A stretch of 64,000 nt of DNA, taken from Daphnia carinata. Taxonomy: Eukaryota. The DNA is taken from NCBI RefSeq assembly GCF_022539665.2, contig NC_081331.1, forward strand, positions 5,518,001 to 5,582,000, written 5' to 3'. A model generated the notes under the pieces. That model was not told the origin of the DNA, ran no database searches, and was given only the letters and a program-made list of their open reading frames with translations. The position numbers and the translations under genes are program-made. The number at the start of each line of letters is the position of its first letter. The first letter of the stretch is position 1. Positions 12,239 to 19,816 of the stretch are shown in pieces.

Positions 12239-12744
12239 CCATTCCTTCGTTGAAGTTAAAACAAGCTCAATGATGATGGATGGCCAGAGCTTGGAATGAA
12301 GAATATTTTGTATTATTTCCTTCTTATAAAAAAAACAAACGTATAATAAAACTTAGCCAAGACAAATGCAATTTTCGGAAGTTTAATTGTAATGCAGTGA
12401 AAGCAGAAAAAATTTTAAGCCCGACTAAATAAGCCCGACTTTTCTCGGTCGGGCTTAAATTTTTTTTCTGAAAAAACTGACACTCATCGGAATTGGTTGA
12501 ATATCACAGGGTATACTCAAAATTGAATGCTGATTCCGGGAAAATTGCTGTTTTTAAAATTAAGCAAATCGTTTTTGAAACACACCGAATATTTGACGCA
12601 ATGTTAGCGCGCCAGTACGCTACAGCGCTAGTTCGATGCAGCGGAAATATTCGGTGGGTATATATAGAGAATTAACTATACATCTGAGGTAGATGGCGAT
12701 AGCAGTGAAACGGAAAAAAGGCCGATATATGGCAATCCGTTTTA

Positions 12745-14988
12745 CATAAAAAAAAAAAAAAAAAAAATGGCGGAAAAAAAAAAAAATCGCACTTTTTTCT
12801 CTTTTTTCTACCCGTAGCCATCTATCAGTCGGTTTCGTTATTACAGGCATGTAAGCAATTTTAGTTAATTGTATCCCATTAGCAGTTAATTGAGTAGCGT
12901 GGCTGGAGAACAACGCGTGGCTGGAGGAACAATTGAAAAATGGATAAGATAATAAAACAAAAAAATGGTAAGTATAAACATTATTATATTGGTTTTCAAT
13001 TATTAATTATTGTTTATTAGATCAAATTATGAAGCTGCAGGCCCAGTTATTGGAACAACACAAAATATTAGATAATAAAGCTAAGGATCGTAGGCCTAAC
13101 ACGTAATGATTCTATTTATTTGCTTTTATTCATTCGTGTTTTGTAGCTCAAATTTTGAGTCTTCAAGCTCAGCTAGGGGAAAAGAACAAATTGGAACGGA
13201 ACAGTTTCCAAACAGTGAAGGAGGTTTTTCAAAACTCATCTCTAACTGAGCGTGAGGATGAGTTGGCATTAGGCGAACACAGCCAGGTACCTAAACTTTT
13301 CAAATAAGAATTCAAAATAAGTATAGAATTTTAAAAAACAATTATTTATTGCTTAGTTATTCAGTCCACCACCTGACAGTGTGTTAAATTTAAATTCTGT
13401 TAGTGCTGCACTAAAAGAATCGTTAGTAATAAGCTCATGCAGTGAAGGAACTGAACAATTGTGGGAACGTATTTGGGCCGAAAATGGGTGTGGTACAGAA
13501 ACCCAGAAATGGCACAAGTTCAACATGAAACATGGATTAGGTACTTTTCGGTTTTTTGTCTATCGAAAAAGTATTTTTAATGCTATTATTTTGCATTCAC
13601 AGATTTTAACGGGGGATCAAATCAAGTCTGGAAGTGTTACAGGATGGAAGAGTGAGCCTACAGATGAAAAAACACTGAGAGTGCATTACCGTAAGGTGTG
13701 AGGTAAATTATTAGAGTTATGCAAATTGCCTAATGAGAAGTACCATCTTGTGTTAATGAATCCAGTACAACAGCAATCCTTTATAGTTCTGTCACAGCTA
13801 GAAGCCTCAAATAATTCTGCTTCTCTGTCTAAAGAACAACTTGTCCTTTACGTTCAGAGTGTTGGGGAAACTGGGTACTTAAATGGCCCTAAAGATGTTT
13901 TAATTTTGCTGCTATTGCAGAGATGAACATCATACATGGACTCTTTAGGTATGAAAGGATTTTTCTTCAAATAATTTTGAATTTATGACGAAGAATTTCT
14001 CCTCCTTTTGCCAACCAGGTCTTATCTACCAAAAAAAATTTTATCCAATAGGAAAGGATTTTCATGTACTGGGAACACAACTATCAACAATGCAACATTC
14101 TACAGGTGCTAGTTTATCATTCAAGAGCCTTATACAATGAAGTTAATCTGCAATTTGTATGTCCTTTCCCAAGCTTCCACCAGAAGTTGAATCTATGAGT
14201 CATGTAAGTTCCATGATCAACAATTGATGTGTTTAACTGTGTTGTTTTTCTTTTCTCAATATAGGTTAATAGTAACATTGGATCTGAAAAGATTCTTGGT
14301 TGGGGCAAGACACTGAATAAATTGTATTGATTGGATGGATGACATGACATTGCTATACTTAATTCGGATTCCCCAGACGGTATTTGATATTTAAAAAATT
14401 GAAGTGCATATCTGGGCTCCCTTCTTTTCTGAAGCCCCGTTTCCCCTTGACTCATAATAAGCCCGTAGGGGGTCATGCCCCTACTGTACGGTATATATAA
14501 AAACAACATATACCGAGGTTTGGAGGGCTCTGGCCGGAAAGGGGACGTGGGGTGCCGCTTCGTCCGATGATGTGTTCACGGAGGGTGACGTGGCTGCCCA
14601 CAAATCCGAACTAAAGGTTAATCGCTCCTGTAAAAATGTTCCAAATCTTCAGCTCTTCTTCCGGCTTCTCTTAGCCAATCACCGGGTAATCTCCCCGGTG
14701 GGTCAACAAGGCAGTGTCTCCCCCTGCCTGGGTTGACGGCAACTTTTGAAAGGGCTATTGTGCCTTTTTAAAGTTGCAAAAATAATTGTAATGTGCAGAG
14801 AATTGTCAATAAATTTTTTTTATAAAATATTTTTTGCAAAATTTGTTTCTTTCATTGTCTTTGTTAGCTGTATTCACACATTACAATTATGAACTTTTTT
14901 TTTTTTTGCTTTGCTTTACTTGTTTTTATCACCTTTGATGGTAAGCATTGTTTCCATTGGTTTATCGTTTATCTGTAAGTATTCAATT
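12745..14988 (+). repeat. Left arm of ~2.25 kb inverted repeat
   Basis: ORFs 13381-13701(+), 13726-13926(+) and 14117-14509(-) have identical translations at 16789-17109(-), 16564-16764(-) and 15980-16372(+); coordinate sums ~30490, so the centre is ~15245. Confidence 0.97.
12940..14378 (+). pseudogene. Decayed multi-exon gene of unknown family in the left arm (coiled-coil-like N-terminus)
   Basis: ATG 12940; short GT-AG introns join in phase to MDKIIKQKN-DQIMKLQAQLLEQHKILDNKAKD-PQILSLQAQLGEKNKLERNSFQ...HSQ-LFSPPPDSVLNL...KHGL; later exon-like blocks are out of phase or contain TGA stops (KILGWGKTLNKLY*LDG*HDIAIL). Confidence 0.6.
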
Positions 14989-15079
14989 TTATTTATTACA
15001 CTCTTTCAATTCTTCAACTTAGATTCAAGGAACAACGTGTAGTATCTGGATATTTTTTGAAGTAATTTTGTATTTTGTT

Positions 15080-15150
15080 TACTCGTATGGGAACCGATCC
15101 CCAGACAATCAGCGTGCAACGCCGATGCTCTAACATTAAGCCACGAGATA
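15080..15150 (-). pseudogene. tRNA-like element (Ala-TGC-like), degenerate
   Basis: Minus strand CTCG-TGGCTTAATGTTAGAGC-ATCGGC-GTTGCAC-GCTGA-TTGTC-TGGGGATCGGTTCCCA-TACGAG: A box, anticodon arm with TGC, GGATCG T-loop variant, partial acceptor stem CTCG/CGAG. Confidence 0.6.
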
Positions 15151-15246
15151 TAACTAAATATTTTATTATCGCATATCATATGTTATCGTCTAGGATGTTT
15201 ATGCAGTCTTTCACAATTATATGTTTATCTTTCTATTGCATTTAAA

Positions 15247-15312
15247 AGGTTCATAGCTCTGTGGTAGAGCGTTTAGCTACGACAACTGTTACCCTGGGTT
15301 CAAACCTCAATA
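15247..15312 (+). pseudogene. tRNA-like element, degenerate
   Basis: A box TAGCTCTGTGGTAGAGC (15254-15270) and B box GGTTCAAACC (15297-15306) at tRNA spacing; anticodon and acceptor stems decayed. Confidence 0.55.
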
Positions 15313-15433
15313 GATGTGTTAAAATGAAGTAGAATTAATGTAGAAGAGTATGTTGCAGAATTGCATTTCATTTTTATTCTAAGTGTAAATGCAAGTCCAC
15401 AAGTGACTAGTAAAAAGACAACTTGACATAACA

Positions 15434-15500
15434 TGATTCATGGCTCATTGGTAGAGCATCGGCGCGGGATGCCGAACATCCAGGGTTCGATCCCTGGATA
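15434..15500 (+). pseudogene. tRNA-like element, degenerate
   Basis: TGGCTCATTGGTAGAGC (A box/D arm), TCGGC-GCGGGAT-GCCGA anticodon arm, CCAGGG-TTCGAT-CCCTGG T arm with B box; no acceptor stem. Confidence 0.65.
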
Positions 15501-15502
15501 AT

Positions 15503-17763
15503 AATAGAATGCTTACAGATAAACGATAAACCAATGGAAACAATGCTTACCATCAAAGGTGATAAAAACAAGTAAAGCAAAGCAAAAAAAAAAAAGTTCA
15601 TAATTGTAATGTGTGAATACAGTTAACAAAGACAATGAAAGAAACAAATTTTGCAAAAAATATTTTATAAAAAAAATTTATTGACAATTCTCTGCACATT
15701 ACAATTATTTTTGCAACTTTAAAAGGCACAATAGCCCTTTCAAAAGTTGCCGTCAACCCAGGCAGGGGGAGACACTGCCTTGTTGACCCACCGGGGAGAT
15801 TACCCGGTGATTGGCTAAGAGAAGCCGGAAGAAGAGCTGAAGATTTGGAACATTTTTACAGGAGCGATTAACCTTTAGTTCGGATTTGTGGGCAGCCACG
15901 TCACCCTCCGTGAACACATCATCGGACGAAGCGGCACCCCACGTCCCCTTTCCGGCCAGAGCCCTCCAAACCTCGGTATATGTTGTTTTTATATATACCG
16001 TACAGTAGGGGCATGACCCCCTACGGGCTTATTATGAGTCAAGGGGAAACGGGGCTTCAGAAAAGAAGGGAGCCCAGATATGCACTTCAATTTTTTAAAT
16101 ATCAAATACCGTCTGGGGAATCCGAATTAAGTATAGCAATGTCATGTCATCCATCCAATCAATACAATTTATTCAGTGTCTTGCCCCAACCAAGAATCTT
16201 TTCAGATCCAATGTTACTATTAACCTATATTGAGAAAAGAAAAACAACACAGTTAAACACATCAATTGTTGATCATGGAACTTACATGACTCATAGATTC
16301 AACTTCTGGTGGAAGCTTGGGAAAGGACATACAAATTGCAGATTAACTTCATTGTATAAGGCTCTTGAATGATAAACTAGCACCTGTAGAATGTTGCATT
16401 GTTGATAGTTGTGTTCCCAGTACATGAAAATCCTTTCCTATTGGATAAAATTTTTTTTGGTAGATAAGACCTGGTTGGCAAAAAGGAGGAGAAATTCTTC
16501 GTCATAAATTCAAAATTATTTGAAGAAAAATCCTTTCATACCTAAAGAGTCCATGTATGATGTTCATCTCTGCAATAGCAGCAAAATTAAAACATCTTTA
16601 GGGCCATTTAAGTACCCAGTTTCCCCAACACTCTGAACGTAAAGGACAAGTTGTTCTTTAGACAGAGAAGCAGAATTATTTGAGGCTTCTAGCTGTGACA
16701 GAACTATAAAGGATTGCTGTTGTACTGGATTCATTAACACAAGATGGTACTTCTCATTAGGCAATTTGCATAACTCTAATAATTTACCTCACACCTTACG
16801 GTAATGCACTCTCAGTGTTTTTTCATCTGTAGGCTCACTCTTCCATCCTGTAACACTTCCAGACTTGATTTGATCCCCCGTTAAAATCTGTGAATGCAAA
16901 ATAATAGCATTAAAAATACTTTTTCGATAGACAAAAAACCGAAAAGTACCTAATCCATGTTTCATGTTGAACTTGTGCCATTTCTGGGTTTCTGTACCAC
17001 ACCCATTTTCGGCCCAAATACGTTCCCACAATTGTTCAGTTCCTTCACTGCATGAGCTTATTACTAACGATTCTTTTAGTGCAGCACTAACAGAATTTAA
17101 ATTTAACACACTGTCAGGTGGTGGACTGAATAACTAAGCAATAAATAATTGTTTTTTAAAATTCTATACTTATTTTGAATTCTTATTTGAAAAGTTTAGG
17201 TACCTGGCTGTGTTCGCCTAATGCCAACTCATCCTCACGCTCAGTTAGAGATGAGTTTTGAAAAACCTCCTTCACTGTTTGGAAACTGTTCCATTCCAAT
17301 TTGTTCTTTTCCCCTAGCTGAGCTTGAAGACTCAAAATTTGAGCTACAAAACACGAATGAATAAAAGCAAATAAATAGAATCATTACGTGTTAGGCCTAC
17401 GATCCTTAGCTTTATTATCTAATATTTTGTGTTGTTCCAATAACTGGGCCTGCAGCTTCATAATTTGATCTAATAAACAATAATTAATAATTGAAAACCA
17501 ATATAATAATGTTTATACTTACCATTTTTTTGTTTTATTATCTTATCCATTTTTCAATTGTTCCTCCAGCCACGCGTTGTTCTCCAGCCACGCTATCAAT
17601 TAACTGCTAATGGGATACAATTAACTCAAATTGCTTACATGCCTGTAATAACGACTACCTAACCTTTAATAATAACTAACCTAACCTAACCGACTGATAG
17701 ATGGCTACGGGTAGAATAAAGAGAAAAAAGTGCGATTTTTTTTTTCCGCCATTTTTTTTTTAT
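15503..17763 (-). repeat. Right arm of ~2.25 kb inverted repeat
   Basis: Reverse complement of 12745-14988 with a few substitutions/indels and a ~33 bp CCTAA-rich insert near 17655-17688. Confidence 0.97.
16111..17550 (-). pseudogene. Mirror copy of the decayed multi-exon gene in the right arm
   Basis: Reverse complement of 12940-14378. Confidence 0.6.
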
Positions 17764-18600
17764 GGCAATCCGTTTTACATAAAAAAAAAAAATGGCGGAA
17801 AAAAAAAAAAAAATCGCACTTTTTTCTCTTTTTTCTTTTTCTCTTAGTCAATCACCGGGTAATCTCCCTGGTGGGTCAACAAGGCAGTGTCTCCCCCTGC
17901 CTGGGTTGATGGCAACTATTGAAAGGGCTATTATGCCTTTTTAAAGTTGCAATATGCATGAAGCAGCGCAATATTTGCAGATCGATAATGGCGGTGGAGG
18001 TAAAAACTACAAAAAATAAACGAGATAACGATACCGTTCAGACGAGGGAAACTCAGATACACGTTGTCAACGTAAAAACAAAGTAAACAATGGGAACCAC
18101 ATGACAAAAAAAGTAACAATAGTTCCATTTCACATGCTAGAGGCTGATGAATCTGCAGCGCCATCTAGTGGAAATACTGTTTGGCCAGGTTTTAAAATAA
18201 GCCCGACAAAATAAGCATCGTACTAGCGCTGTAGCGTACTGGCGCGCTAGCATTGCGTCAAATACTCGGTGTATTTCAAAAACAATTAACTTCATAAAAA
18301 AAATAGTAATTTATTCAGAATCAGCATTCAATTTTGAGTATACCCTGTAATATTCAACTAATTCCTATGAGTGTCAGTTTTTTCAGAAAAAAAAAATTAA
18401 GCCCGACCGAGAAAAGTCGGGCTTATTTAGTCGGGCTTAAAAATTTTTTTCGGTCAGTGTATGTTGAGAATTAACTAGAAACGTGACCGGTAGATGGCGA
18501 TAGCAATAAAACACAAAAAAAGGCCAATATTTTTTTTTTATTTTGGGTAAAACGGATTGCCATATGTTTACAATATATGGTTTATTGATTTAACCGTAAA

Positions 18601-19816
18601 ATGTTAAGCCAAACGCAACTACAATTCTATAAAGACAACGGGTATCTTTTGTTGGACGAAGTGTACACGACAGCCGAAATCGACGAATGTTCTTCCGAAT
18701 ATGATGATATTTTCGTACTGAAAAAGAACTCAGAACTTGAGGCCACATGGAAAGGCGATTGGAAGGATGAAGCGTTGGTAATTTTTCTTGGCAGTATTAA
18801 TGGAACAACTTTTAACCAAGTTTCGTCTGATAATTTTAGCCAACACAGCTTTTTTCCGTTCACAATCTCCAAAACCATGCTGCAATTTTTACGAAGATGC
18901 TTTTGAAAGACACATTACTTCAAGCAATTGCTGATATTCTTGGAACTAAAGACATCTTACTCCATCATACAAAAGCTCATGTAAAGCCATCTGGTACAGG
19001 TTCGGCATTTCCCATGCATCAAGTTAGCTTCACATTTTTAAAAGATTCTTTTAACAAACAATTGTTTAACATCTATGCAAGGAATTTATCAATTTCCTTA
19101 AATAGGATTACCAATACTTTCCATACAAGAATGATTCTCTGGTTGCTGTTTTTATACATTTGGATGATACTAATATGGAAAATGGGGGTTTAGCTGTTTA
19201 TCCTGGTTCACACCATCTTGGACCATTAGAAGATAGAGGCAACATTCCAGGTAAATTTGATGTTAAATTTCATAGTGCATTGTCAGATCAAATTAAACTA
19301 CTTAACCTGTATTTGCTGTGCTCCATCAAAATTCTAAGGCTGGCATTATGTCGACCAAGTAAGTAAAAGGCTTTTCCTTATATCATTATATTCTTTTTAC
19401 GAGTTCGTCAGAGTATAATGCAAATTGATGCTTCTTTGGTTCCAAGGATAAGTTCCCGATCGACAAGGCAACGCCCATTAACGCAAAGCGAGGTGAGGAT
19501 TTTCCACAAAAGCCACCAAACGTATTTTATCTTTAACTTACATGATCAAGGGCAAGTCGTTATTTTTTCGTATCTACTTGTACATGGCAGCTATCCCAAC
19601 ACGTCTGATGGCGTTCGACGAATGCTGCTCTTTCAGGTGAAAAGGTCAGTTAAAATGGAAGATGAATTATTTTTACCTTTCGTTACAATTTAGATGATGT
19701 CAGCTCACGACGAAAAACTTAAGGAAACCCATCGTTCCCCATGCCAAGGCATGGTTCTGAGTGGAAGAAATCCGCATGCAGAAGCCAGCATTAAAAAACG
19801 GCATGAAGAGTGCTGA
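18601..19816 (+). CDS. Phytanoyl-CoA dioxygenase (PhyH)-family 2-oxoglutarate/Fe(II) dioxygenase, ~7 exons
   Basis: QLQFYKDNGYLLL N-terminus, spliced FPMHQ|DYQYFP (HxD), VFIHLDDTNMENGGLAVYPGSH, GQVVIFSYLLVHGSYPNTSDGVRR (distal His and 2OG-binding Arg); TGA 19814-19816. Confidence 0.9.

What the first reader, a model, noticed from the sequence alone, without database searches (positions are those of the whole stretch)
15080..15500. Three tRNA-like Pol III A/B-box units packed into the palindrome spacer
Seen: three degenerate tRNA-shaped units in ~420 bp (15080-15150 minus, 15247-15312 plus, 15434-15500 plus). Units 1 and 3 are related (TGGCT.A.TG.TAGAGCATCGGCG...GC.GA) and point outward into opposite arms; unit 3 abuts the right arm. 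D arms and B-box regions are retained while acceptor stems are largely lost. Known: A/B boxes bind TFIIIC, and tDNA-like sites can act as chromatin barriers. Inference: the element may carry tRNA mimics as barriers or promoters, or recombination between inverted tRNA-derived SINE heads seeded the palindrome.
Basis: partly seen in the sequence, partly recalled or inferred. Interest (0 to 1): 0.72.

Follow-up and report, generated by a model that had tools for sequence, protein, structure and literature searches.

The report
tRNA-like modules inside a Daphnia transposon
Three tRNA look-alikes that lack a full tRNA fold sit between two mirror-image halves of what is likely a jumping DNA element of a water flea, and two of them keep their paired stems despite many letter changes, so they probably serve the element as small-RNA promoters.

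Summary
All three units have an A box and a B box 44 nt apart plus D and T stems. That pattern occurs 4 times in 64 kb, and 3 of those are these units. Rfam tRNA scores are 30.4, 20.9 and 13.5 bits (cut-off 29), and ARAGORN calls no gene. The host is Daphnia-like. The 2.2 kb arms are two left halves of a multicopy element with TATGG…CCATA terminal inverted repeats (IS3EU/GingerRoot-like; no transposase core or target duplication here), each with a spliced 157-aa ORF. Units 1 and 3 differ at 18 of 56 letters yet keep all 14 stem pairs, two by double changes. In one public contig set, 19 variable sites lie beside unit 1 and none is listed inside it; diverged copies keep the units with their neighbours. 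Best reading: tRNA-derived Pol III modules carried by the element, with units 1 and 3 likely driving outward A-rich RNAs that would end near the element gene's poly(A) signal. Transcription and TFIIIC binding are not shown. Functionless SINE-like relics remain a real rival.

The parts
15079..15150 (-). Unit 1: tRNA-like module; A box from 15143, B box 44 nt on, one mismatch each; D, anticodon (loop centre TGC) and T stems paired; partial acceptor stem
15247..15318 (+). Unit 2: most decayed module; perfect B box, A box with one mismatch, D stem intact, anticodon stem broken
15434..15503 (+). Unit 3: perfect A box (15441) and B box; D, anticodon (loop centre GGG) and extended T stems; no acceptor stem; abuts right arm
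14838..15078 (-). A-rich body downstream of unit 1 up to the first TTTT (predicted Pol III stop, 309 nt from the unit start)
   Evidence: terminator role inferred
15497..15652 (+). A-rich body downstream of unit 3 up to the first TTTT (predicted stop, 215 nt); includes an A13 run near 15583-15595
   Evidence: terminator role inferred
12758..14992 (+). Left arm: left half of the element
   Evidence: 10 differences over the 2158-nt core
15498..17761 (-). Right arm: inverted copy, lacks the outer ~20-30 nt of the terminal repeat
12940..13660 (+). Spliced ORF1, five exons, 157 aa, 127 of 143 residues identical to Daphnia carinata LOC130695125; mirrored in the right arm
   Evidence: intron skips in X1 contigs
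14808..14813 (+). Only AATAAA in 14600-15100 on this strand; likely poly(A) signal of the arm gene, 25 nt from the TTTT that would stop the unit 1 RNA
   Evidence: role inferred
12728..12832 (+). Left terminal inverted repeat, starts TATGG
17761..18564 (+). Short internally deleted element: left end at 17761, 127-nt piece shared with the arms (17826-17952), right end CCATA at 18564
   Evidence: 10 loose contig ends behind 18564
12650..12727 (+). Diverged copy (79%) of the right subterminal region, cut before its terminal repeat
12407..12639 (+). HINE/DINE-1-like segment, 90% inverted copy at 18215-18448
   Evidence: features compared with PMC4067079 passages

Best explanation
The three units are tRNA-derived A-box/B-box modules lying between two inverted left halves of a multicopy element that is likely a non-autonomous IS3EU/GingerRoot-like DNA transposon, and units 1 and 3 probably act as internal Pol III promoters for short outward RNAs. 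Step 1 (shown): boxes, spacing and stems are present, full cloverleaves are not. Step 2 (shown in sequence, classification inferred): the arms begin with a TATGG terminal repeat that recurs inverted at 18564 and carry a spliced small ORF with dispersed paralogs. Step 3 (inferred): TFIIIC would bind the boxes and Pol III would make RNAs of about 310 and 215 nt, a tRNA-shaped head plus an A-rich body, ending at the first TTTT within about 30 nt of the arm gene's poly(A) signal, so the two transcription units would meet tail to tail. Step 4 (inferred): the arms were made or kept identical by recent duplication or gene conversion, while the heads lie outside that tract and diverged with their stems kept. 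Unit 2 is likely a decaying third module. What the RNAs or the bound TFIIIC do for the element (insulating its gene, limiting read-through into the hairpin-forming palindrome) is untested.
For: Boxes, spacing and stems beat background. Units 1 and 3 differ at 18 of 56 letters, 7 in stems, yet both keep 14 of 14 pairs, with two double-sided changes in the T stem and a shared 6-nt T loop; random substitution keeps all 14 in 68 and 140 of 200000 trials. In X1 (92 contigs laid), 19 variable sites and 7 indel places lie in 14977-15077 and none is listed in 15078-15146; p 0.001-0.005 depending on where detection ends. Single X1 contigs with 15 differences in 171 nt (15147-15317) and 12 in 117 nt (15381-15497) keep unit 2 and unit 3 with their flanks, while the first two exons of the neighbouring PhyH-like gene match with 0 differences, which points to paralogous copies. 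Element: an exact 18-mer at 12728, 17761 and inverted at 18564 (chance mean 0.09); terminal repeats alike at 65 of 82 aligned positions; 10 contigs leave the sequence at 18564 with 0.43 agreement; ORF1 paralogs on three large D. carinata contigs; ORF1 shares 59 aa (51%) with the N-terminus of a D. magna protein whose look-alikes include rva_4 integrase-core clusters. TA..TA and TAYGG..CCRTA ends are described for IS3EU (PMC10045372, PMC12730594; passages).
Against: No transcript start, strand or TFIIIC binding was seen; X1 is one study, holds contigs only and is not on record as RNA. The stem test is optimistic: the structure and the T-loop register were read from these same units, and two different real tRNAs would also differ by paired changes; with only 3 sequences the covariation control is not passed (103 of 500 shuffles reach 2 double changes). 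Unit 1 has a mismatch in each box. The low-depth variant contigs carry a G-to-C change in the D loop of units 2 and 3 and a changed anticodon in unit 3. The flank that varies is AT-rich and may simply mutate faster. T4-free runs of 215 and 310 nt are not rare (14% and 6% of starts). No 6-bp target duplication at any of 4 end pairings and no transposase domain in 61 of 61 reading segments of 35 aa or more. No single contig spans all three units, and no genome was available to count copies.
Confidence: 0.5

Rival explanations
1. The units are functionless relics: heads of a tRNA-derived SINE, or tRNA pseudogenes, that inserted into or were captured by the element and are copied with it as passengers.
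For: Head + A-rich body + A13 run resembles a SINE, and lost acceptor stems are typical of SINE heads (own knowledge). The 5' flanks of units 1 and 3 are unrelated. Unit 2 is clearly decayed. GingerRoot elements often carry captured host fragments (PMC6839031, passages).
Against: No target duplication directly flanking head and tail for units 1 and 3 (the one shared 8-mer for unit 3 is not adjacent to either end). All 14 stem pairs are kept across 18 differences. Variants avoid unit 1.
Confidence: 0.3
2. The units act at DNA level only, as TFIIIC-bound barriers or insulators that keep silencing from spreading between the arms or into the element's gene; no functional RNA is made.
For: Three B-box-like sites within 420 bp at the centre of an inverted repeat; tRNA genes are discussed as heterochromatin boundaries at fission-yeast centromeres (PMC6538654, passage). 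Units 2 and 3 have perfect B boxes.
Against: A barrier needs the boxes, not the RNA stems, yet stems are what units 1 and 3 keep best, and unit 1 has a B-box mismatch. The locus lies between ordinary genes (symplekin, PhyH-like), not at an evident heterochromatin edge.
Confidence: 0.13
3. Recombination between two inverted tRNA-derived heads started the palindrome.
For: Units 1 and 3 are inverted relatives at the inner ends of the arms (pair I10), and unit 3 sits at the arm junction.
Against: The near-identical tract ends before the heads and is 87 nt away from unit 1; the heads are only 68% alike; the arms run out to transposon ends, which gives a simpler source of inverted copies.
Confidence: 0.07

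Closest known systems
IS3EU/GingerRoot DNA transposons (PMC10045372, PMC12730594, PMC6839031; passages read)
   Same: TATGG…CCATA ends, imperfect terminal repeats of about 100 nt, many insertion flanks, unpaired ends, an ORF with similarity to the N-terminus of an rva_4-like protein, carried cargo
   Different: No DDE core and no 6-bp target duplication at this locus; two left halves in a palindrome; the word tRNA does not occur in the main text of the three IS3EU/GingerRoot papers searched for it
tRNA-derived SINEs (own knowledge)
   Same: tRNA-like head with A and B boxes, lost acceptor stem, A-rich body and tail
   Different: No target duplication found; units stay linked to element flanks in diverged copies; no LINE-like tail could be tested
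tRNA-gene boundaries at fission-yeast centromeres (PMC6538654, passage)
   Same: Clustered A/B-box units associated with an inverted repeat
   Different: Those are true tRNA genes at centromeres; these are non-canonical and sit in a 6-kb insertion between two genes
Dada transposons targeting tRNA/snRNA genes (PMC3706591, passages)
   Same: DNA transposon associated with tRNA sequence; a Dada family is known from Daphnia pulex
   Different: Dada lacks terminal inverted repeats and splits its target gene; here the units are whole and lie more than 2 kb from the element ends
Gammaherpesvirus tRNA-miRNA-encoded RNAs (recalled, not looked up)
   Same: A parasite-borne tRNA-like head used as a Pol III promoter for a longer non-coding RNA
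   Different: Body here is A-rich; no downstream pre-miRNA hairpin was looked for by folding; host element is a transposon

Membership tests
Functional tRNA gene | Full cloverleaf with 7-bp acceptor stem | tested here: not met
   5 of 7 (unit 1, best register), at most 5 of 7 (unit 2), 3 of 7 in the canonical register (unit 3); ARAGORN default 0 genes
Functional tRNA gene | Rfam tRNA gathering score over the whole model | tested here: not met
   Only unit 3 passes, and only for positions 8-63
Type-2 Pol III promoter | A box and B box at tRNA-like spacing | tested here: met
   Spacing 44 in all three; mismatches 1+1, 1+0, 0+0 against recalled consensus
Type-2 Pol III promoter | Downstream run of 4 or more T | tested here: met
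   At 309, 124 and 215 nt from the unit starts; such runs are common
Type-2 Pol III promoter | TFIIIC/Pol III binding and a discrete transcript | not testable with these tools
   Only contigs were available
tRNA-derived SINE | tRNA-related head with internal promoter | tested here: met
tRNA-derived SINE | Target-site duplication around head and tail | tested here: not met
tRNA-derived SINE | Dispersed copies with unrelated flanks | tested here: inconclusive
   5' flanks of units 1 and 3 unrelated, but diverged X1 copies keep the window's flanks; no genome
tRNA-derived SINE | 3' end shared with a partner LINE | not testable with these tools
   No repeat library
IS3EU/GingerRoot | TA..TA (TAYGG..CCRTA) termini | tested here: met
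IS3EU/GingerRoot | Terminal inverted repeats longer than 30 bp | tested here: met
   65 of 82 aligned positions; similarity past the first 18 nt beats 1000 of 1000 shuffles
IS3EU/GingerRoot | 6-bp target-site duplication | tested here: not met
   0 of 4 end pairings; both left ends abut other element pieces, so the true flank may be lost
IS3EU/GingerRoot | Integrase-like DDE transposase, or an autonomous partner with the same ends | tested here: inconclusive
   No domain in 61 segments; only a 59-aa link to a protein with rva_4-like neighbours; three searches for longer relatives found none. Filed as IS3EU-like, not as a member
Dada | No terminal inverted repeats; element inserted within the RNA gene | tested here: not met
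   Terminal repeats present and units unsplit

The most novel reading that the evidence does not exclude
A Daphnia DNA transposon family keeps its own tRNA-mimic Pol III genes under selection for RNA structure, and uses their convergent RNAs or bound TFIIIC to control or shield its own transcript, as some viruses use tRNA-headed RNAs.
Probability: 0.2. Interest if true: 0.72.

Novelty: new variant of a known kind. Interest (0 to 1): 0.42.

Why it matters
tRNA-like heads are routine in SINEs, but my paper searches (listings only) turned up no title on tRNA-like Pol III modules maintained inside a terminal-inverted-repeat DNA transposon, and one paper says IS3EU structure and function are largely unexplored (PMC11934779, passage). 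If the stems are under selection across copies, a DNA transposon would be carrying its own Pol III RNA genes or portable insulators, which is testable in Daphnia. If not, this is an ordinary repeat with tRNA-derived debris that can mislead tRNA and gene annotation. Repbase could not be searched and may already list the element.

Tried and rejected
No whole genome is held, so copy number and empty sites could not be counted. Run search: 3 runs listed, no RNA holder listed. X1 contig depth falls from about 400-800 to 2 across the 5' end of unit 1 and rises across the 5' end of unit 3. This would fit RNA starts there, but it comes from contigs of one study and is not used as evidence. 15320-15361 has no cover, so no contig links unit 2 to unit 3; whether the last 109 letters of the unit 3 variant contig continue into the arm cannot be read from the table. 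X2 laid 6 short contigs on the arm and flank and none on the spacer; X3 laid none. A U2 snRNA-like 12-mer near 15038-15049 (13.1 bits) is rejected: 478 of 486 depth in X1 has another letter at 15042. A fourth tRNA-like unit in each arm (15812-15899, ARAGORN 85%) is rejected: no Rfam hit, fold z -0.38, and other calls appear at that level. The terminal 18-mer gave 12 metagenome and 2 viral hits, none extending past 25 nt, taken as chance. A 26-nt piece of unit 3 has 0 exact hits in prokaryote genomes and viral contigs. No longer relatives of ORF1, the downstream frame or P0004 (weak negatives). The Atlas gave only a 0.76 lead for ORF1. P0002 (fly lysozyme repeats) is treated as spurious. Three look-ups of earlier findings returned nothing. 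Exon models had coordinate slips; one search is the valid one. An assembly fold-back is unlikely because both arms run into different flanks and differ at 10 sites, but no long read confirms the palindrome.

Full report
Observation. The spacer between two inverted arms (12758-14992 and 15498-17761; 10 differences over the 2158-nt core) holds three tRNA-like units. Rfam scores them 20.9 (15079-15150, minus), 13.5 (15247-15318, plus) and 30.4 bits (15441-15496, plus; cut-off 29). Across the window only units 3 and 1 appear as tRNA hits at E<=10, and ARAGORN calls none at default. A scan for A box, B box, D stem and T stem finds 4 sites in 64 kb on both strands, three of them these units, each with boxes 44 nt apart; no spacer shuffle of 1000 reached two hits (box consensus recalled). 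None of the units has a full acceptor stem, so they are unlikely to be working tRNA genes.

Units 1 and 3. They share 39 of 57 aligned letters and a T loop one base shorter than the Rfam model. On a 14-pair D/anticodon/T structure both keep every pair although 18 of 56 letters differ, 7 of them in stems, including two double-sided changes. Random substitution does this in 68 and 140 of 200000 trials. This test is optimistic because the structure was read from the units, and the three-sequence covariation control is not passed (103 of 500). Unit 2 keeps the D stem and a perfect B box but has lost the anticodon stem.

Host and element. Flanking genes are symplekin and a PhyH-like gene. Each arm holds a five-exon ORF of 157 aa, 127 of 143 residues identical to an uncharacterised Daphnia carinata protein, so the host is likely a Daphnia species. 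That protein's cluster has 3 members on three different large contigs, one with three accessions. An exact 18-mer starting TATGG lies at 12728 and 17761 and inverted at 18564; the left and right ends match at 65 of 82 aligned positions. Ten contigs of run X1 leave the window's sequence at 18564 into dissimilar flanks, which marks a mobile end. IS3EU families have TA..TA ends and usually 6-bp duplications (PMC10045372, passages); fungal ones end TAYGG..CCRTA (PMC12730594, passages); GingerRoot repeats are 100-150 bp and often unpaired (PMC6839031, passages). ORF1 shares 59 aa with the start of a D. magna protein whose Atlas look-alikes include rva_4 integrase-core clusters. Against membership: no target duplication in 4 end pairings and no transposase domain in 61 segments. 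I call it IS3EU-like and non-autonomous. The palindrome is two left halves tail to tail, followed by a short element at 17761-18564.

Other copies. X1 is listed as 'DNA?' and not on record as RNA, but its contigs skip five GT..AG introns of the PhyH-like gene and introns of the arm gene, so it likely derives from cDNA. Of 92 contigs laid on 14900-15502, the listed differences fall at 19 sites and 7 indel places in 14977-15077 and at none in 15078-15146; p is 0.001-0.005 over the part where detection is plausible. Two low-depth contigs are about 90% identical and keep unit 2 with the stretch back to unit 1, and unit 3 with its upstream flank. They keep the D stems but change the same D-loop G in both units. 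This fits cargo copied with the element. No contig spans all three units, and all of this is one sample.

Mechanism. From established Pol III biology (own knowledge), A and B boxes recruit TFIIIC, and transcription starts just upstream of the A box and stops at a T run. Units 1 and 3 face outward, and their first TTTT lies at the mirrored sites 14841 and 15649, giving A-rich RNAs of about 310 and 215 nt. The only AATAAA of the arm gene's strand in that region is at 14808, so the predicted RNAs would end close to where the element's mRNA ends. I put 0.5 on this promoter reading. Within it: tRNA origin about 0.97, carriage by a multicopy element about 0.8, IS3EU-like identity about 0.7, present activity about 0.5. 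No start site, strand or binding was observed.

Rivals. Functionless SINE-like or pseudogene passengers (0.3) explain the lost acceptor stems, the A-rich tail and the decay of unit 2, but less well the kept stems. A DNA-level barrier (0.13), as discussed for fission-yeast centromeric tRNA genes (PMC6538654, passage), needs boxes more than stems. Recombination between heads as the seed of the palindrome (0.07) is weak because the identical tract stops short of the heads and their 5' flanks are unrelated. Dada elements lack terminal repeats and split their targets (PMC3706591, passages), which does not match.

Novelty. The parts are of known kinds. The combination was not found in five paper searches (listings only), and the word tRNA is absent from the main text of three IS3EU/GingerRoot papers. 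I read passages only, no supplements; supplements and Repbase may already hold this element. Verdict: a real feature, a new variant of a known kind, interest 0.42.

Noticed in passing
window 12720-12750 and 17713-17836: Both left-end starts abut another element end that lacks its outer 20-30 nt. At 17713-17836 two left ends form a head-to-head hairpin. This suggests end-to-end insertion with loss of one terminus.
   Followed up: partly
window 12407-12639 and about 18190-18448: A HINE/DINE-1-like segment (short subterminal repeats, nearby inverted repeat, T-rich edges) lies beside the right subterminal region in opposite orientations at the two places; X1 contigs also show strand-switch joints there. 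A 3' stem-loop and exact ends were not tested.
   Followed up: partly
window 18158-18171 (-), 12690, 18491, 12765: A motif resembling the CTCF consensus lies at 18158-18171, with shorter AGATGGC variants near both terminal repeats and a YY1-like motif in the left repeat. Consensus recalled, no background test.
   Followed up: no
window 14653-14779, 15711-15836, 17826-17952: A 127-nt GC-rich piece with two hairpins (fold z -2.73 for 15735-15812) is kept even in the short deleted element; no Rfam match.
   Followed up: partly
window 13603-14830: After ORF1 the arm gene appears to continue through further exons with stops in all frames: a long spliced 3' region or a decayed second ORF. The window's ORF1 ends differently from the D. 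carinata protein at the exon 4/5 junction.
   Followed up: partly
window 18537-18776: An X1 contig of the PhyH-like gene ends inside the element's right terminal repeat with 0 differences, so this end likely sits at the same place in that sample, 37 nt before the gene's ATG, and may affect its promoter.
   Followed up: no
window 12937-13064 and 13062-13190: The first exons of ORF1 are an old tandem duplication (69% identity).
   Followed up: no
window 58917 (-): The one other site that passed the box-and-stem scan; no Rfam tRNA hit, likely chance.
   Followed up: partly
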